From assembly GCA_043814985.1 (NCBI GenBank), contig JBDRJK010000001.1, positions 28,083 to 92,082 on the forward strand: 64,000 nucleotides of DNA, in the 5' to 3' direction. Position 1 is the first letter of the stretch. Each line of letters begins with the position of its first letter. The position numbers and the translations under genes were made by a program. The stretch is from Candidatus Aenigmatarchaeota archaeon. Its GTDB lineage: Archaea > Aenigmatarchaeota > Aenigmatarchaeia > Aenigmatarchaeales > Aenigmatarchaeaceae. The notes beneath the pieces were generated by a model. It saw nothing but the letters and a program-made list of their open reading frames with translations, did no database searches and was not told where the DNA came from. Positions 36,112 to 41,360 of this stretch are shown piece after piece.

Positions 36112-36417
36112 ATGGTAACAGGTGTTGTAAAGTTTTATAATCCAAACAAAAGCTTTGGATTTATAACTGGCGATGATGGAAAAGATTATTTCGTCCACTC
36201 AAGTGGATTGAAAGAAGGCGTTGACATCACAGAAGGCGACAAAGTTTCCTTTGAAGTTGTTGAAGGCGACAAGGGACTAAAAGCTGAACAAGTTGAAAAA
36301 ACAGGTGCAGCTGCAGAAAAGCCAGAAGAAGCTGAAGAATCAGAAGATGTAGAAACGGACGAAGGCGTAGAAACAGATGATTCAGACGATGATGATTCGG
36401 ACGAAGACGAAGAATAG
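36112..36417 (+). CDS. csp: Cold-shock protein with acidic C-terminal tail
   Basis: RNP1 KSFGFI and RNP2 YFVH; GGAGGT RBS; D/E-rich last ~30 aa. Confidence 0.95.
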   Translation: MVTGVVKFYNPNKSFGFITGDDGKDYFVHSSGLKEGVDITEGDKVSFEVVEGDKGLKAEQVEKTGAAAEKPEEAEESEDVETDEGVETDDSDDDDSDEDEE

Positions 36418-36515: not shown

Positions 36516-36815
36516 ATGGCAAGTAATCCTCTTGGTATTAAAATAGAACCAATTGATTTAGGTTTTAATTCCTCAAGAAAGAGTGGTAGAGATAAAAGAA
36601 GGTCCTTTACTAGAAGCCAAAAAAATGAAATTCTTTATCAACAAGGTAATAAATGTGCTATATGTCATAAGCCTTTAGATCCAAGAGATATTGAATATGA
36701 CCATAAAAAACCTTGGGCTTCTGGAGGTAGAACTATAACCATTAATGGTAGAGCATTATGTGGTTCTTGTCATAATAAAGTTAGCCACAAGACCAGATTA
36801 AAAAAAAGTAGATAA
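36516..36815 (+). CDS. HNH endonuclease (may extend to 36876 if one A of the A8 run at 36800-36807 is spurious)
   Basis: CAIC...EYDHKKP.ASGG...NGRALCGSCH. Confidence 0.88.
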   Translation: MASNPLGIKIEPIDLGFNSSRKSGRDKRRSFTRSQKNEILYQQGNKCAICHKPLDPRDIEYDHKKPWASGGRTITINGRALCGSCHNKVSHKTRLKKSR

Positions 36816-36885
36816 GAAAAGGGAATCTAAGAAAAATAATATTCTTGGTGGATCATTAATTGACTTTGATGTTTAAAACGAGAAA

Positions 36886-36995
36886 TGCCCCCGGAGGGAT
36901 TTGAACCCTCGGCCCCTTGATTTCTTCATCTTCGAATCAGAACTTCTAAGTTATTTAGAAGTCAAGTGCTCTAATCCAAACTGAGCTACGGAGGC
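36886..36995 (-). tRNA. trnR: tRNA-Arg(TCT) with a 34-nt canonical 37/38 intron (36922..36955)
   Basis: Acceptor stem GCCTCCG/CGGGGGC, anticodon stem CTTGA/TCAAG, T arm GAGGG-TTCAAAT-CCCTC. BHB: exon CTTC pairs with intron GAAG, with bulges TA|A and AA|A. Confidence 0.95.
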
Positions 36996-37042
36996 ATATT
37001 GAATTTATTTATTGTGTTGCTTATAAATTTATAGTGATTGAA

Positions 37043-37594
37043 ATGGACAGGGAAGAGGCACTAAGTTTGATAAAAGAAGGCACGGACAAGAAGAATCTCA
37101 TAAAGCACATGCTCGCAGTCGAAGCAATAATGAAAGGGGCAGCGGAATTCCTAGGGGATGATATTGAGAAGTGGGACATGACCGGATTATTGCATGACGT
37201 TGACTTCGAAAAGACCGAAGAAAACCCGAAGGAGCACGGAGTTATGGCAGAGACTATACTCGAGGGGAAAGTTGACAAAGAGATAATTGATGCCATAAAA
37301 TCCCATAATTTCGAATATACAGGAGTTCAGCCAAAGACAAAGATGGACTTTGCTCTAATAGCTGCAGACGCTGTATCAGGGCTCATAATAGCCAATGCAT
37401 TGATAATATCGTCAAAAAAGCTGGCAGACATCACACCAGAGAATGTTGCCAAAAGATTCAAGGAAAAGGACTTCGCAAGAAGATGCAGAAGGGAATTAAT
37501 TCTATATTGTGAGAAGGTAGGCATCCCCAAAGAAAAGTTCTTTGAAATATCGCTGAAGGCGCTGCAAAACATTTCGGATGAGTTAGGCTTGTGA
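37043..37594 (+). CDS. HDIG-type HD-domain hydrolase
   Basis: KHMLAVEA, GLLHDVD, IKSH and AADAVSG motifs; the stop codon coincides with the right end of the IS element. Confidence 0.9.
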   Translation: MDREEALSLIKEGTDKKNLIKHMLAVEAIMKGAAEFLGDDIEKWDMTGLLHDVDFEKTEENPKEHGVMAETILEGKVDKEIIDAIKSHNFEYTGVQPKTKMDFALIAADAVSGLIIANALIISSKKLADITPENVAKRFKEKDFARRCRRELILYCEKVGIPKEKFFEISLKALQNISDELGL

Positions 37595-37700
37595 CATTCT
37601 CATGATAAATCAAGAGATTCTAACTTCTTGAGTTAGTTACAGGCATTGTCACGGATGCCCCGTTCTTAGAGATATACTCTAAAAACCTCTTTTTGATGTT
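37571..37700 (-). ncRNA. Predicted TnpB omegaRNA (3' scaffold plus flanking guide); 5' boundary uncertain
   Basis: Stem-loops at 37642-37659 (GGCAT/ATGCC, loop containing GTGACA), 37620-37636 and 37598-37617. The loop GTGACA can pair with terminal TGTCAC (37591-37596) as a pseudoknot. Confidence 0.7.
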
Positions 37701-38720
37701 TTTAGCCCCATTAAAGTCAGCATTAACTTGGTATCCGCACTTCTTACATTTGAACAAACTTTGTGATTTTCTGTTTGCTTTATTCTTGTATCCACACTTG
37801 GAAGATGTTATAGACGTCTCTTTTTCTTCAATTTTAATTACTTTTATTCCTTTCCAACTTGCTTTATAGGTTATATACTGACTTAACTTGAAGTATGGCA
37901 TATTAGAAACTATTCTATTAAACCTCTTGCCTCTAGCTGATTTTCTAATTCCTTTCAAGTCCCCAAGTAGAATTAAGGAATTGTGCTGGTAAGCAAGGCT
38001 TACTATCTGCTTTGATATTTCATGAAGTTTTAGATTAACAGTTCTTTGTTCCTTGTTACCAATTTGTTTGATTTTCTTTAATAGTTTCTTTTCTCCTAGT
38101 CGTTTTCTCAACCAGGCATAATGCCTTCTAATTCCTCTAATCTCCCTTCCCATAAATATTGGTTTTCCGTTTAGCAGCACGGTTGCCAAAACCTTCTCTC
38201 CTATATCTATGGCAAGAATAGATGAGTATGATTTTTTGATCTCAATTTGTTTTTTTAACAACAATATGAATTTCAAAATTATTGTCTTTCTTAAATATTT
38301 TACTCTCGCATAATTTGTAATCTTTAGGAAATTTACAATGTGGCTTTATTGGTAACCACAAACCACCTCTACGTTGTTTAACAGGAATTCTTACCCAATA
38401 TTTACAGAATTTATGTTTAGTTTTTTTGAGTATAATCTGATCTTTTCTAATTGAAATAGGATACCTTTTATCTGATTTAATTTTCTTGTAATATCTTAAT
38501 GATTGTTGCTTGTTAGCAGAATGTAAAGGTATATTTTCTGCAATCCAATCTGCACCTATTCTCTCCAATTCTAGAAATTTTTGTAGATTGTCATATTCTT
38601 GTTTAAGAGCTTGATATTTTAATTTTGTTGGTTCAAATACTCTACATTTAATTGTCTTACTCGAGAACACATTAATTATTAGTATTCTAAAAATAAATAA
38701 TAGTATTAAAATTAGAGATT
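37591..38720 (-). mobile_element. Non-autonomous IS200/IS605-family (tnpB-only, IS1341-like) element; left end approximate
   Basis: tnpB plus a right-end signature on the minus strand, GAATCTCTTGA-TTTA-TCATGAGA-ATGTCAC. No Y1 or serine transposase nearby; AT-rich compared with the flanks. Confidence 0.8.
37620..38670 (-). CDS. tnpB: TnpB RNA-guided endonuclease (about 349 aa when joined), split by a +1 frameshift
   Basis: Removing one A from the A7 run (T-run 38250-38256) joins IHIVVKK to QIEIKKSYSSILAIDIGEK. RuvC-I IDIG, RuvC-II region LGDL, C-terminal CG...CKKCG..NADFNGAKNI. Confidence 0.9.
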
Positions 38721-38747
38721 ATAATTTAAAAACGGTGTTATAGGATT

Positions 38748-41360
38748 ATGGAGCTCAGGGGAATAGAGCAAAAGTGGAGAAAGAAGTGGGCAGACGCCAA
38801 GATATTCGAGGCAAAGGAAGGTAAAGGCAAAAAGTTCTATGTTCTGGAGATGTTGCCCTACCCCTCAGGAACTGCAGGACATGTGGGGCATGCAAGAAAT
38901 TATATAATAGGGGACAGCTTTGCCAGGTTCATGAGAATGAGAGGCTTCAATGTTCTCTATCCAATGGGCTGGGACGCATTCGGCCTGCCATCAGAGAACT
39001 CAGCAATAGAAAAGGGCATACACCCTGCGAAAAGCATAGCCCAGAACATAAAGACTTTCAAAGAGCAGCTTAATCTCTTATCTAACAGCTATGACTGGTC
39101 AAAGGAAATTACAAGTTGCGATCCAAAATACTACAAATGGAATCAGTGGCTTTTCTTGAAACTTTTCGAGAAAGGATTAGCTTACAAGAAGCTTGCTTTG
39201 GGCAACTGGTGCCCCGAATGTAAAACAACTCTGGCTAACGAGGATGTAAAGGATGGCAAATGCTGGAGATGTGATGCGGAGGTTGAACAGAAAAAAATCA
39301 ACCAATGGTTCTTCAAGATAACGGATTATGCTGACAGATTACTTGATGATTTGGACAAGATTAACTGGTCAGAAAATCTGAAGACGCTACAAAGAAACTG
39401 GATTGGCAAGAGCCAAGGAATCAATTATATTTTCAAGATCAAAGATTCAAACAAAAAAATAAGGACATTCACAACAAGACCGGACACTTTCTTCGGAATA
39501 ACCTTCATGGTAGTAGCTCCAGAAAACCAGTTGATAGAAGAGTTAATCAAGGATGCTAAAAACAAGAAAGGAATTGAAAAGTTCATAGAGGAGTCAAAGA
39601 AATTGTCAGAGCTTGAAAGGACAATGCTTACAAAGGACAAGAAGGGAATCTTCACTGGAAAGTATGCTATCAATCCTGTATCAAAGGATGAGATTCCGAT
39701 ATGGGTTGCAAACTATGTTGTAGGTACGTACGGAACCGGTGTTGTGATAGGAGTTCCAACCCAGGACCAGAGAGACTTCGAGTTCGCAAAGAAGTATGGC
39801 ATCAACTTGAAGAATGTGATCAATCCTCCTGGAAAGGATTTGAAAGAGAGTGAGATGAAGGAAGCCTATGTCGAGGAAGGCATAATGACCAACTCTCAAC
39901 AATTCAATGGAATGAAAAGTTCCGAAGGTATCAAGGCAATAGCAGACTTCCTTGTTGAAAAGGGCTATGCTGAGAGAACTATAAACTATAAAATAAGGGA
40001 CTGGTGCATCTCAAGACAGAGGTACTGGGGAACGCCAATACCGATTGTTTATTGTGACAAGTGCGGCATTGTTCCGGTTCCTGAAAAGGAATTGCCCGTT
40101 CTCTTACCAATAGATGTTGAGTTCGGGAAGGAAGGGGCTGCTCCTCTTGCAACAAATGAAGATTTCGTGAACACCAAATGCCCCAATTGCGGAGGTCCAG
40201 GCAAAAGGGAAACAGACACAATGACAACCTTTGTCGACTCATCATGGTATTACCTGAGGTATACTTCTCCCAATGATGACAAGGCTATATTCGATAAGAA
40301 GAAAGTGAACTACTGGCTCCCTGTTGACCAGTATATTGGCGGCATTGAGCATGCTGTTGGCCATCTTATGTACTCAAGATTCATAACAAAGTTCCTGAAA
40401 GACCAGGGTTATCTTGACTTTGAAGAGCCATTCTTGAAATTAACAAATCAGGGCATGGTAAATATGGGTGGAGTGAAGATGAGCAAATCAAAGGGCAATG
40501 TTGTTGACCCCAGAGATGTGATAAAGAAGCATGGAGTCGATCCATTGAGAACTTATTTGCTTTTCATGGCAGCTCCTATGAAGTCTGTTGAGTGGTCTGA
40601 CAAGGAAATGGGTGGAGTGAGCAGGTTCCTGGACAAGGTTGCAAACATGCTGGATGAAATGAAGAAGGCAAAAGGAGACAAGTATATTGAAAGTGTGACA
40701 CACAGAAAAATAAATGCTGTAACAAACGCTATGAAGAATCTTGAGCAGAACATTGCCATCATAGAGATGATGGACTTTGCAAACAAACTATCAAAGCATC
40801 CTTCTAAGGATTCTTACAAGACATTCTTGAAATTACTGACACCATTTGCTCCGCACACAACAGAGGAACTGTGGGAAATGCTAGGAGAAAAGCAAATGAT
40901 TTCAAAACAGAAGTGGCCTGAGCATGACGAATTCAAGATAAATATGAAAGTGGAGGCCGGTGAAGATTTTATAAACGATGTTATAAAGGACATCAAGGAA
41001 ATACAAAAGCTTTCCAAGATAGAGAAACCGGAAAAGATATCAATATTCGTGACACCCCACTGGAAGTACGAGGTCTTCAATGCGGTTCTGGAGGAAGTTG
41101 AGATGAAAGAACTGATGCAGAATCAAGAATTAAAGAAACTAGGAAACGCTGTTATCAAATACTACAAGAAGTTACAGAAGAGAAAGCCTTTGGAAGAGAT
41201 ATTCCTTACAGCTGGTTACGAGCATGAGATTTTAGAGGACAATAAAAAATTAATTGAAGGTGAGTTTGATTCAAAAGTTGAAATAATCAAAGCAGAGGAA
41301 GCAAAGAACCCAAAAGCACTGGTAGCAGAGCCTAGCAAGCCAGGAATTCTGGTTGAGTGA
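38748..41360 (+). CDS. leuS: Leucyl-tRNA synthetase
   Basis: MLPYPSG, HIGH-like HVGH, editing TTRPDT, DWCISRQRYWG and KMSKS. Confidence 0.97.
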   Translation: MELRGIEQKWRKKWADAKIFEAKEGKGKKFYVLEMLPYPSGTAGHVGHARNYIIGDSFARFMRMRGFNVLYPMGWDAFGLPSENSAIEKGIHPAKSIAQNIKTFKEQLNLLSNSYDWSKEITSCDPKYYKWNQWLFLKLFEKGLAYKKLALGNWCPECKTTLANEDVKDGKCWRCDAEVEQKKINQWFFKITDYADRLLDDLDKINWSENLKTLQRNWIGKSQGINYIFKIKDSNKKIRTFTTRPDTFFGITFMVVAPENQLIEELIKDAKNKKGIEKFIEESKKLSELERTMLTKDKKGIFTGKYAINPVSKDEIPIWVANYVVGTYGTGVVIGVPTQDQRDFEFAKKYGINLKNVINPPGKDLKESEMKEAYVEEGIMTNSQQFNGMKSSEGIKAIADFLVEKGYAERTINYKIRDWCISRQRYWGTPIPIVYCDKCGIVPVPEKELPVLLPIDVEFGKEGAAPLATNEDFVNTKCPNCGGPGKRETDTMTTFVDSSWYYLRYTSPNDDKAIFDKKKVNYWLPVDQYIGGIEHAVGHLMYSRFITKFLKDQGYLDFEEPFLKLTNQGMVNMGGVKMSKSKGNVVDPRDVIKKHGVDPLRTYLLFMAAPMKSVEWSDKEMGGVSRFLDKVANMLDEMKKAKGDKYIESVTHRKINAVTNAMKNLEQNIAIIEMMDFANKLSKHPSKDSYKTFLKLLTPFAPHTTEELWEMLGEKQMISKQKWPEHDEFKINMKVEAGEDFINDVIKDIKEIQKLSKIEKPEKISIFVTPHWKYEVFNAVLEEVEMKELMQNQELKKLGNAVIKYYKKLQKRKPLEEIFLTAGYEHEILEDNKKLIEGEFDSKVEIIKAEEAKNPKALVAEPSKPGILVE

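What the first reader, a model, noticed from the sequence alone, without database searches (positions are those of the whole stretch)
37571..37660. omegaRNA scaffold with pseudoknot; the IS right end forms the host gene's stop codon
On the minus strand there are three stem-loops and a terminal ATGTCAC. The first loop (GTGACA) is complementary to that terminus, as in the TnpB/Cas12 guide pseudoknot. The terminal TCAC is the complement of GTGA at 37591-37594, which includes the TGA of the HD gene, so the insertion left the ORF intact. The predicted guide (AAGCCTAACTCATCCGAAATG) targets the empty HD allele. If the empty allele read GGC TTA TAA, the TAM would be TTAT or TTTAT, and matching ATAA motifs exist at 38693, 38697 and 38721 (inference).
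Basis: partly seen in the sequence, partly recalled or inferred. Interest (0 to 1): 0.65.

Follow-up and report, generated by a model that had tools for sequence, protein, structure and literature searches.

The report
TnpB transposon end and guide RNA
This is the right end of an ordinary TnpB-type insertion sequence in a tiny groundwater archaeon: its guide-RNA scaffold, pseudoknot, target motif and the way it replaced the neighbouring gene's stop codon all check out, but it is a new example of a known system and this copy's nuclease gene is decaying.

Summary
Window 37591-38720 (minus strand) is a 1130-bp, tnpB-only IS200/IS605-type element. It sits between an HD-domain gene and leuS in an Aenigmatarchaeota (DPANN) genome. 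A same-genus genome has the empty site, GGC TTA TAA, exactly as predicted. That fixes the TAM as TTAT (ATAA at 38721-38724 on the plus strand). It fixes the right end at ...AUGUCAC and the guide as AAGCCUAACUCAUC.... It also shows that the IS end changed TTA TAA to TTG TGA, so the HD protein still ends ...ELGL.

Four copies of a sister element independently show TTAT on the left and a GTCAA right end. In 17 relatives all four helices covary (93% of cells paired against 69% when shuffled). The pseudoknot between the SL-B loop and the last six scaffold bases is 98% paired and occurs as at least eight sequence pairs.

Three things were not foreseen. This tnpB has a real A6-to-A7 frameshift. It has lost one zinc-finger cysteine. 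Its left end is short and has no hairpin, and the genome has no TnpA, so the copy is probably inactive. Stop-codon replacement is not enriched among relatives. No RNA data exist. It is a new member of a known kind, of modest interest.

The parts
37591..38720 (-). Whole insertion sequence (1130 bp): a tnpB-only IS200/IS605-type element. The limits have a 2-nt (TT/AA) ambiguity.
   Evidence: Comparison with the empty site in congener G002. Contigs from three metagenome runs break on the empty-site reference exactly here, with loose ends ...GAGAATGTCAC and TCTCTAAT. Single copy in its own genome.
37570..37590 (-). Guide-equivalent flank, AAGCCUAACUCAUCCGAAAUG. It is the antisense of the last 21 nt of HD coding sequence.
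   Evidence: It lies directly 3' of the right end. In the empty site the same bases directly follow TTAT. Use as a guide is inferred from the TnpB mechanism (PMC10097598; 10.1101/2023.03.14.532601).
37591..37596 (-). Right-end terminus UGUCAC, the 3' half of the pseudoknot. Its complement GTGA(CA) supplies the last base of HD's Leu codon and the TGA stop.
37598..37617 (-). SL-D, the subterminal right-end hairpin UCUCUUGA-UUUA-UCAUGAGA.
   Evidence: Its five outer pairs covary (helix 4, 84.7% paired, all 5 with both-side changes).
37617..37620 (-). Conserved GAAU just 5' of the hairpin foot. It occupies the position of the IS608-type DNA guide tetranucleotide, an assignment made from memory of IS608.
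   Evidence: GAA is conserved in nearly all relatives. Its 4th base does not covary with the terminal base.
37620..37636 (-). SL-C, a variable stem-loop CUAACU-CAAGA-AGUUAG that contains the tnpB stop codon UAG (37620-37622).
   Evidence: Relatives have a hairpin at the same place, of variable length and sequence.
37641..37660 (-). SL-B, GGGCAU-[CCGUGACA]-AUGCCU. The loop GUGACA (37647-37652) is the 5' half of the pseudoknot.
   Evidence: Helix 2 is 100% paired with 3 covarying pairs. The pseudoknot helix 3 is 98% paired with 3 covarying pairs.
37662..37687 (-). SL-A, GGUUUUUAGAG-UAUAU-CUCUAAGAAC, inside the tnpB coding region.
   Evidence: Helix 1 has 10 pairs, all with both-side changes, 90% paired.
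37620..38276 (-). tnpB C-terminal ORF (218 aa): RuvC plus zinc ribbon. It has Gly at the canonical RuvC-II Glu, a conserved Glu about 46 aa downstream, and Ser in place of the first zinc-finger Cys (codons at 37791-37808).
   Evidence: Pfam PF07282, 2.4e-21. Alignment with 16 relatives. PDB alignment to Cas12f/TnpB-like chains.
38242..38670 (-). tnpB N-terminal ORF (142 aa, GTG start).
   Evidence: It aligns over residues 1-140 with the N-termini of intact 343-394-aa relatives.
38250..38256 (-). A7 run (T7 on the plus strand) that splits tnpB. One A fewer would give ...VVKKQIEIKK..., like the relatives' ...KKEIEIKK....
   Evidence: The same run length is found in contigs of two runs, X1 (groundwater) and X3 (biofilm, a different study), with no indel reported in any of the three runs.
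38671..38720 (-). Left end, only 50 nt, AT-rich with a TATA-like box and no significant hairpin.
   Evidence: DNA fold z-score -0.2. Relatives have left ends of about 95 nt, and several of them (L068, L075, L059) carry a hairpin resembling their right-end hairpin.
38721..38724 (-). TAM, TTAT on the element strand (ATAA on the plus strand). These bases are the last base of the original Leu codon plus the original TAA stop of HD.
   Evidence: Empty site. Four copies of a sister element are all preceded by TTAT. A TTAT TAM is known for ISDge10 TnpB (PMC13507860).
37034..37594 (+). HD-domain gene. The likely start is the ATG at 37043. Its stop TGA (37592-37594) lies inside the IS.
   Evidence: Pfam HD. 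Fifteen homologues in the family end at the same residue, and most are followed directly by leuS.
38748..41360 (+). leuS (leucyl-tRNA synthetase), separated from HD by the insertion.

Best explanation
The stretch is the right end of a non-autonomous, tnpB-only IS200/IS605-family insertion sequence (37591-38720, minus strand).

How it arrived. The element inserted, without target duplication, immediately 3' of a TTAT motif. That motif overlapped the stop codon of the HD gene: GGC TT|A TAA on the plus strand. Shown.

The RNA. The last ~98 nt of the element (37591-37688) encode the omegaRNA scaffold. It consists of SL-A, SL-B, a variable SL-C and the subterminal hairpin SL-D. A 6-bp pseudoknot joins the SL-B loop (GUGACA) to the final six bases (UGUCAC). 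The structure is shown by covariation. That it exists as RNA is inferred.

The guide. Transcription that runs out of the element would add the flanking AAGCCUAACUCAUC... as the guide. A TnpB-omegaRNA complex would then cut any copy of the locus that has lost the element, because only there does TTAT sit next to that sequence. This forces re-copying of the IS. The step is inferred from the published homing mechanism.

Effect on the host gene. The right end reads GTGA on the host gene's strand, so the insertion changed TTA TAA to TTG TGA and left the HD protein unchanged. Shown. This harmlessness explains why the insertion is tolerated in a streamlined 0.8-Mb genome.

Current state. This copy is probably no longer active. 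Its tnpB has an A6-to-A7 frameshift and a Cys-to-Ser change in the zinc finger. The left end is short and has no hairpin. No TnpA is encoded in the genome.
For: Element and protein: Pfam Cas12f1-like_TNB on the 218-aa ORF; the N-terminal ORF aligns with intact relatives.

Insertion site: empty site in a congener; HD-leuS adjacency and the ...ELGL* end are conserved in the family; contigs from three metagenome runs break exactly at both junctions.

Sister element: four copies each have TTAT on the left, end in GTCAA, and diverge immediately beyond.

RNA structure: covariation of all four helices, 93% against 68.7% paired, 0/500 shuffles, and 41-49% for slid controls. The pseudoknot is 98% paired, with GC/UA/CG, AU/CG/UG and CG/AU/UG at three positions. 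Further pseudoknot pairs occur in other relatives: GGUUC/GAACC, GGCUUU/AAAGCC, UGCUU/AAGCA, GCUU/AAGC.

Literature: a pseudoknot using the bases just 5' of the guide is a core feature of TnpB and Fanzor2 RNAs (PMC10097598, PMC11832414); homing of TnpB (10.1101/2023.03.14.532601); TTAT TAM (PMC13507860).

Decay: the A7 run is identical in contigs of two independent runs, with no indel in a third; Ser aligns with the first zinc-finger Cys of all 15 full-length relatives aligned and of the two PDB homologues whose alignments were shown; the left-end fold is not better than shuffles; no PF01797 hit in the own genome.
Against: No RNA data exist, so neither transcription nor the 5' end of the RNA is known. 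Rfam 15 gives no match to any family in this region, so there is no external model to confirm against. The 2-nt TT ambiguity means a 2-bp target duplication cannot be formally excluded from this one site. The pseudoknot covariation could in principle serve single-stranded DNA recognition by TnpA rather than the RNA. The frameshift might be bypassed by slippage on the A7 run, in which case the copy could still be active. The genome is 91% complete, so a TnpA gene could have been missed.
Confidence: 0.88

Rival explanations
1. The loop-terminus complementarity is a single-stranded DNA feature used by a Y1 transposase (TnpA) to find the right-end cleavage site, as in IS608, and is not an RNA pseudoknot.
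For: IS200/IS605 ends are recognised as folded single strands, and cleavage sites are read by base pairing with an internal DNA guide (established for IS608; from memory). The right end here has the IS608-like layout of GAAU, hairpin and UCAC. TnpA genes occur in 76 of 371 genomes of the phylum, including a congener.
Against: In IS608 the DNA guide is the tetranucleotide at the 5' foot of the subterminal hairpin. Here that position is a conserved GAA whose 4th base does not covary with the terminal base. The covarying partner is a hairpin loop 45-60 nt upstream, which is where the cryo-EM pseudoknots of TnpB and Fanzor2 sit relative to the guide (PMC10097598, PMC11832414). Six to seven contiguous Watson-Crick or GU pairs are kept, more than a 4-nt cleavage-site contact needs.
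Confidence: 0.08
2. The copy is still a working homing system: RNA polymerase or the ribosome slips on the A7 run to make full-length TnpB, and the Ser-for-Cys zinc finger is tolerated.
For: The split lies exactly in a 7-A homopolymer, and removal of one A restores a frame that aligns with relatives. The RuvC Asp, the shifted Glu and the second Asp are all intact. Every scaffold helix is still perfectly paired in this copy. The same sequence is fixed in contigs of three metagenome runs from two studies.
Against: All 15 full-length relatives aligned have a single uninterrupted ORF there (L067 is truncated) and no frameshift. The first zinc ligand is invariant in them and in the two PDB homologues whose alignments were shown. 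GTG replaces the relatives' ATG start, and the left end is half the usual length. Together these look like early decay.
Confidence: 0.15
3. The supply of a stop codon by the IS end is an evolved property of the family, not luck. TAM TTAT reads ATAA and the right end TCAN reads NTGA on the opposite strand, so landing on a convergent gene's xxA TAA always swaps in xxN TGA.
For: The geometry is exact in the window. It appears again in one copy of a sister element (L035/L096), where an 81-codon membrane-protein-like ORF ends ...GGA AT|T TGA and the left flank predicts an original GGA ATA TAA. All right ends seen in this subgroup end in TCA(A/C/G).
Against: Only 2 of 17 relatives have 60 or more open codons running into the right-end TGA, against a 5.2% background for TGA sites in the same loci (p = 0.22). 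Only 1 of 4 sister copies does. TCA at the right end is already explained by the pseudoknot and the cleavage site. Other relatives end in GAACC or AAGC(A/C), with no stop on the opposite strand.
Confidence: 0.1
4. The element belongs to another IS family that makes a 2-bp (TT) target duplication.
For: The junction has a 2-nt TT ambiguity.
Against: The protein is TnpB. Four sister copies share TTAT on the left and TCAA on the right, with no shared duplication. A close relative's left end also starts TTAT|AATCT (L059).
Confidence: 0.02

Closest known systems
ISDra2 TnpB-omegaRNA (Deinococcus radiodurans; cryo-EM PDB 8H1J, PMC10097598)
   Same: The RNA is encoded at the 3' end of tnpB, overlaps the end of the ORF and stops at the right-end boundary. 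It has several stems plus a pseudoknot that uses the bases just 5' of the guide. The guide is the DNA flanking the right end. The target is TAM plus flank in the empty site.
   Different: The scaffold conserved here is about 98 nt, and the pseudoknot partner is about 56-61 nt upstream rather than about 103-105. The TAM is TTAT rather than TTGAT. There is no tnpA in the element. The protein has Gly at the canonical RuvC-II Glu. The host is archaeal (DPANN).
ISDge10-lineage TnpB (TTAT TAM; PMC13507860)
   Same: The same 4-nt TAM, TTAT.
   Different: No sequence comparison was made here. It is bacterial, and its catalytic layout was not compared with this clade's.
TnpB2 / 'pro-Fanzor' clade and Fanzor2 (PMC11832414, PMC10711439)
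   Same: [quoted passage not shown] Relatives fit the published pattern ExxxxxxCxxCx(12,18)CxxCx(4,8)D with a D-not-P-G RuvC-I. The Fanzor2 RNA also has a pseudoknot using positions -4 to 0.
   Different: Membership in that clade was judged from motifs only, not from a phylogeny. The elements here look like IS200/IS605 (TTAT/TCAN ends with a right-end hairpin). The RNA is far shorter than Fanzor2's 205-nt scaffold.
IS608 (Helicobacter pylori) right-end architecture
   Same: A subterminal hairpin with GAAT at its 5' foot and a TCAA-type cleavage site a few bases 3' of it. Insertion occurs 3' of a TTAC/TTAT-type tetranucleotide without duplication. This comparison is from memory of the IS608 literature.
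   Different: There is no TnpA here, and no left-end hairpin in this copy.

Membership tests
IS200/IS605 family, tnpB-only (IS1341-like) element | Encodes TnpB (RuvC-like nuclease with a C-terminal zinc ribbon) | tested here: met
   PF07282 at 2.4e-21. PDB hits to Cas12f/TnpB chains at 1e-21. The gene is split by a frameshift, and the first zinc ligand is Ser.
IS200/IS605 family, tnpB-only (IS1341-like) element | Inserts 3' of a short conserved motif without target-site duplication | tested here: met
   Empty site GGCTT|ATAA in a congener. Four sister copies all have TTAT on the left. A 2-nt ambiguity remains at this one site.
IS200/IS605 family, tnpB-only (IS1341-like) element | Subterminal imperfect hairpins at both ends | tested here: inconclusive
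   The right-end hairpin is present and covaries. The left end is 50 nt with no fold better than shuffles (z -0.2). Several relatives have left-end hairpins.
IS200/IS605 family, tnpB-only (IS1341-like) element | Y1 transposase TnpA available (in cis or in trans) | tested here: not met
   No PF01797 hit in the own 91%-complete genome. It is present in 76 of 371 genomes of the phylum, including a congener. It is not required for the tnpB-only subclass, but it is required for mobility.
omegaRNA (OMEGA guide RNA of TnpB) | Lies at the 3' end of tnpB, overlaps the end of the ORF and ends at the transposon's right boundary | tested here: met
   The scaffold is 37591-37688, the tnpB stop is at 37620-37622, and the right-end boundary at 37591 comes from the empty site.
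omegaRNA (OMEGA guide RNA of TnpB) | Conserved secondary structure supported by compensatory changes | tested here: met
   21 of 27 pairs change on both sides; covariation score 0.709 against 0.241 when shuffled and 0.10-0.16 when slid.
omegaRNA (OMEGA guide RNA of TnpB) | Pseudoknot between the bases just 5' of the guide and an upstream segment | tested here: met
   Helix 3 (98% paired, 3 covarying pairs). At least eight sequence variants of the pair. Position as in PMC10097598 and PMC11832414.
omegaRNA (OMEGA guide RNA of TnpB) | The guide matches the TAM-adjacent sequence of the unoccupied site | tested here: met
   TTAT|AAGCCTAACTCATC in the congener's empty site.
omegaRNA (OMEGA guide RNA of TnpB) | The RNA is expressed, processed and bound by TnpB | not testable with these tools
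   No RNA run holds the stretch. There is no Rfam family for it.
TnpB with rearranged RuvC-II glutamate (TnpB2 / pro-Fanzor type) | The canonical RuvC-II Glu is absent, and a conserved Glu lies six residues before the first CxxC | tested here: met
   LLGDLKG against xxEDL, and IEEKETS against DPQYTS, in the PDB alignment. Both are conserved in the 15 full-length relatives aligned. The pattern is that of PMC10711439. No structure or tree was made.

The most novel reading that the evidence does not exclude
The end sequences of this TnpB lineage may be co-adapted for harmless landing on stop codons. The TAM TTAT is the complement of xA-TAA, and the right end TCAN is the complement of N-TGA. Insertion into the stop codon of a convergent gene would therefore automatically replace TAA with TGA and keep the protein intact. 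This would let the element persist in extremely gene-dense, AT-rich DPANN genomes.
Probability: 0.1. Interest if true: 0.5.

Novelty: new member of a known kind. Interest (0 to 1): 0.3.

Why it matters
This is a clean natural example in which every part of the TnpB homing model can be read from sequence: the TAM, the right-end boundary, the guide and the empty target in a congener. It also gives comparative evidence, without any structure, for the omegaRNA pseudoknot in an archaeal clade whose nuclease has the shifted catalytic glutamate. That combination offers a compact scaffold of about 98 nt and a short TTAT TAM, which people mining small RNA-guided nucleases could test using the intact relatives. 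For the biology of the host, it shows how an insertion can be tolerated in a 0.8-Mb genome by replacing the stop codon it destroys. None of this changes what is known about the system.

Tried and rejected
Rfam 15 with permissive thresholds over 36800-39000 found only the neighbouring tRNA and chance-level hits, and no omegaRNA family.

BLAST and tblastn of the element against its own genome found no second copy, so the ends could not be defined from paralogues. The congener's empty site and a sister element were used instead.

A plain MAFFT alignment of the scaffolds left the 3' termini misaligned by 1-2 columns. I re-aligned with an artificial 18-nt tail added to every sequence, only to right-align the termini, and left the tail unpaired in the counted structure. 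I did not build a covariance model, because the tail would have entered it.

RNA runs: none. DNA runs were available only as contigs. They show the occupied site in three runs and no empty-site joint, but contigs drop rare variants, so a minority empty allele is not excluded.

The idea that stop-codon replacement is a recurrent property was tested and not supported.

A DNA-level (TnpA) reading of the pseudoknot was considered and judged unlikely (see rivals). ARAGORN did not find the intron-bearing tRNA that Rfam finds.

Full report
**What is in the sequence.**
The window comes from an 808-kb, 21-contig, 91%-complete genome. Its relatives are Aenigmatarchaeota (DPANN) MAGs, and it occurs in groundwater and biofilm metagenomes. 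Four features lie around the finding:
- An HD-domain gene on the plus strand, 37034-37594 (Pfam HD). Its likely start is the ATG at 37043.
- Two overlapping minus-strand ORFs, 38242-38670 (142 aa) and 37620-38276 (218 aa). The second carries the Cas12f1-like TNB domain, PF07282, at 2.4e-21.
- leuS, from 38748.

The two minus-strand ORFs are the N- and C-terminal parts of one TnpB. They align end to end with intact 343-394-aa relatives.

On the minus strand, downstream of and overlapping the end of tnpB, the sequence reads:
- SL-A: GGUUUUUAGAG-UAUAU-CUCUAAGAAC
- SL-B: GGGCAU-[CCGUGACA]-AUGCCU
- SL-C: CUAACU-CAAGA-AGUUAG
- GAAU, then SL-D: UCUCUUGA-UUUA-UCAUGAGA
- the terminus AUGUCAC, followed by AAGCCUAACUCAUCCGAAAUG.

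**The empty site.**
A same-genus genome (G002) carries the HD gene at 85% nucleotide identity, followed directly by leuS. It reads ...GATGAGTTAGGC TTA TAA TTTGTAAACGGTGTTATAGGATT ATG GAGCTC. The window reads ...GAGTTAGGCTT[GTGACATTCTC ... TTAGAGATT]ATAATTTAAAAACGGTGTTATAGGATTATGGAGCTC.

The insert is therefore 37591-38720 (1130 bp), with a 2-nt TT ambiguity. On the element's strand the junctions are 5'-AAATTAT|AATCTCTAATTTT...GAGAATGTCAC|AAGCCTAACTC-3'.

- The empty allele is GGC TTA TAA.
- The TAM is TTAT, which is ATAA at 38721, the third of the three candidates named.
- The guide-equivalent flank is the sequence that follows TTAT in the empty site. It matches the congener's allele at 14 of 14 proximal bases, with mismatches at positions 15 and 18.

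HD followed by leuS is the conserved arrangement in the family. Fifteen HD homologues all end at the same residue...(E)LGL*. The insertion is thus derived, and the HD protein is unchanged: TTA TAA became TTG TGA, with G+TGA supplied by the IS. None of the three congeners has this TnpB.

Contigs from three public metagenome runs (two studies) carry the occupied site with no differences. Laid on the congener's empty site, they break exactly at the junction, with loose ends ...GAGAATGTCAC and TCTCTAAT. No empty-site contig was seen.

**Independent support for the ends.**
A sister element has several copies in one genome (G359), at 87-90% identity to each other. All four copies compared are preceded by TTAT (TTTAT three times, ATTAT once) and end in ...GTCAA. 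Their flanks diverge immediately beyond. TTAT is already a known TnpB TAM, in the ISDge10 lineage (PMC13507860).

**The RNA scaffold and the pseudoknot.**
Relatives of the TnpB C-terminal part were collected from genomes and metagenomes at 48-80% amino-acid identity. Their 3' regions share the same layout.

For 17 distinct sequences I counted the pairs of SL-A, SL-B, the outer part of SL-D and the pseudoknot. An artificial tail had to be added to each sequence to right-align the termini, and it was left unpaired. The results:

| Measure | Observed | Shuffled | Partners slid 1-3 columns |
|---|---|---|---|
| Cells forming standard pairs | 93.0% | 68.7% (0 of 500 shuffles reach it) | 41-49% |
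| Covariation score | 0.709 | 0.241 | 0.10-0.16 |

In total, 21 of 27 pairs change on both sides.

The pseudoknot helix (SL-B loop with the last six bases) is 98% paired. Three of its positions covary: GC 10 / UA 5 / CG 2; AU 8 / CG 8 / UG 1; CG 8 / AU 5 / UG 2.

In words, the loop/terminus pairs are:
- GUGACA/UGUCAC (window)
- UUGAC/GUCAA
- CUGA(C/U)/GUCAG
- GUGACC/GGUCAC
- GUGAAC/GUUCAC

Further relatives add GGUUC/GAACC, GGCUUU/AAAGCC, UGCUU/AAGCA and GCUU/AAGC.

A pseudoknot that uses the bases just 5' of the guide is the core of the ISDra2 TnpB RNA (-5 to -3 with -103 to -105; PMC10097598) and of the Fanzor2 RNA (-4 to 0; PMC11832414). Rfam has no family that matches, and no RNA-seq run holds the stretch. 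Expression is inferred, not shown.

**RNA or DNA?**
IS200/IS605 ends are also read as folded single-stranded DNA by TnpA. The right end here has the IS608-like layout: GAAU at the hairpin foot and TCAC a few bases after it.

The conserved GAA does not covary with the variable terminal base. The covarying partner is instead a loop 45-60 nt upstream, and 6-7 contiguous pairs are kept. I therefore give the DNA-only reading a probability of about 0.08.

**State of this copy.**
- The two tnpB ORFs are separated by an A7 run (T7 at 38250-38256). One A fewer gives ...VVKKQIEIKKSYSS..., matching the relatives' ...KKEIEIKKSYSS....
- The run length is the same in contigs of two independent runs, X1 and X3, and no indel was reported in any of the three runs, so it is very unlikely to be an assembly error.
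- All 15 full-length relatives aligned have TC(S/C)KCG-type zinc fingers. The window has TSSKCG, with the first zinc ligand replaced by Ser.
- The start codon is GTG, where the relatives have ATG.
- The left end is 50 nt with no fold better than shuffles. Relatives have left ends of about 95 nt, and several carry a hairpin like their right end's.
- The genome has no Y1 transposase, although 76 of 371 genomes of the phylum do, including a congener.

Every scaffold helix is still intact in this copy. The simplest reading is a fairly recent insertion that is now immobile and whose nuclease is starting to decay. Slippage on the A7 run that restores the protein cannot be excluded (about 0.15).

**Is the stop-codon supply more than luck?**
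The geometry is built in. TTAT reads ATAA, and TCAN reads NTGA, on the other strand and in the same frame. One sister copy (L035/L096) repeats it: an 81-codon ORF ends ...GGA ATT TGA inside the right end, and the left flank predicts an original GGA ATA TAA.

The numbers do not support a general pattern. Only 2 of 17 relatives have 60 or more open codons running into the right-end TGA, against 5.2% for TGA sites in the same loci (p = 0.22). Only 1 of 4 sister copies does. Other relatives end in GAACC or AAGC(A/C). I treat it as a fortunate and therefore tolerated insertion, and keep the adaptive reading as the low-probability novel case.

**Comparison with known systems.**
The element works like ISDra2- or ISDge10-type TnpB elements, with a homing nuclease guided by a transposon-end RNA (10.1101/2023.03.14.532601). 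It passes the membership tests for a tnpB-only IS200/IS605 element and for an omegaRNA, with three exceptions: the left-end hairpin is inconclusive, TnpA is absent, and expression is untestable.

The protein clade has Gly at the canonical RuvC-II Glu (LLGDLKG) and a conserved Glu six residues before the first CxxC (IEEKETS). This is the rearranged site described for TnpB2/pro-Fanzor and Fanzor (PMC11832414; pattern in PMC10711439).

**Verdict.**
This is a new member of a known kind. Interest is modest (0.3): a well-documented natural example with good covariation data, but no new principle.

Noticed in passing
window 37620-38670 (-), and relatives L019-L085: The whole TnpB clade has Gly at the canonical RuvC-II glutamate (LLGDLKG). 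It has a conserved Glu about 46 residues downstream, six residues before the first CxxC. This is the rearranged 'TnpB2/pro-Fanzor' layout, here in DPANN archaea with IS200/IS605-like ends.
   Followed up: partly
L035 = L096 (G359:C11), right end at L096 2345: A second case of stop replacement. An 81-codon membrane-protein-like ORF on the opposite strand ends ...GGA ATT TGA inside the IS right end, and the left flank (TTTTAT|) predicts an original GGA ATA TAA.
   Followed up: partly
L059, L060, L062, L063, L065 versus the window: The closest protein relatives (74-80% identity in the C-terminal part) share SL-A and the SL-B stem. They have a different SL-B loop, terminal hairpin and terminus (UGGUUC ... 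GAACC(A)). The 3' half of the RNA and the right end therefore change faster than, or are exchanged independently of, the protein.
   Followed up: no
window 37641-37661 (-), TnpB residues ~205-211: The conserved C-terminal peptide motif (D/N)G(A/V) of the clade is encoded by the invariant GGGGC of SL-B. The protein conservation there may be a by-product of the RNA constraint.
   Followed up: no
window 36886-36995 (-): A tRNA gene with a 36-nt insertion next to the anticodon loop. Rfam scores it 57 bits; by eye the anticodon is UCU (tRNA-Arg). ARAGORN in its default mode does not report it.
   Followed up: partly
window 36516-36815 (+): A small (99 aa) stand-alone HNH endonuclease gene between a cold-shock-like gene with an acidic tail (36112-36417) and the tRNA. 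It may be a second mobile or selfish gene.
   Followed up: no
window 38715-38747 (+): The insertion site is also the AT-rich stretch (TTATAATTTAAAAA) about 20-33 nt upstream of the leuS ATG, which looks like its TATA box. The last two bases of the IS (TT) regenerate TTATAA, so the leuS promoter may have survived as well.
   Followed up: no
window 38680-38741: Logan contigs from all three metagenome runs end within or near the AT-rich left end (38680/38711, 38686/38718, 38355/38741). This could be low coverage of AT-rich sequence, or heterogeneity at the left junction.
   Followed up: no
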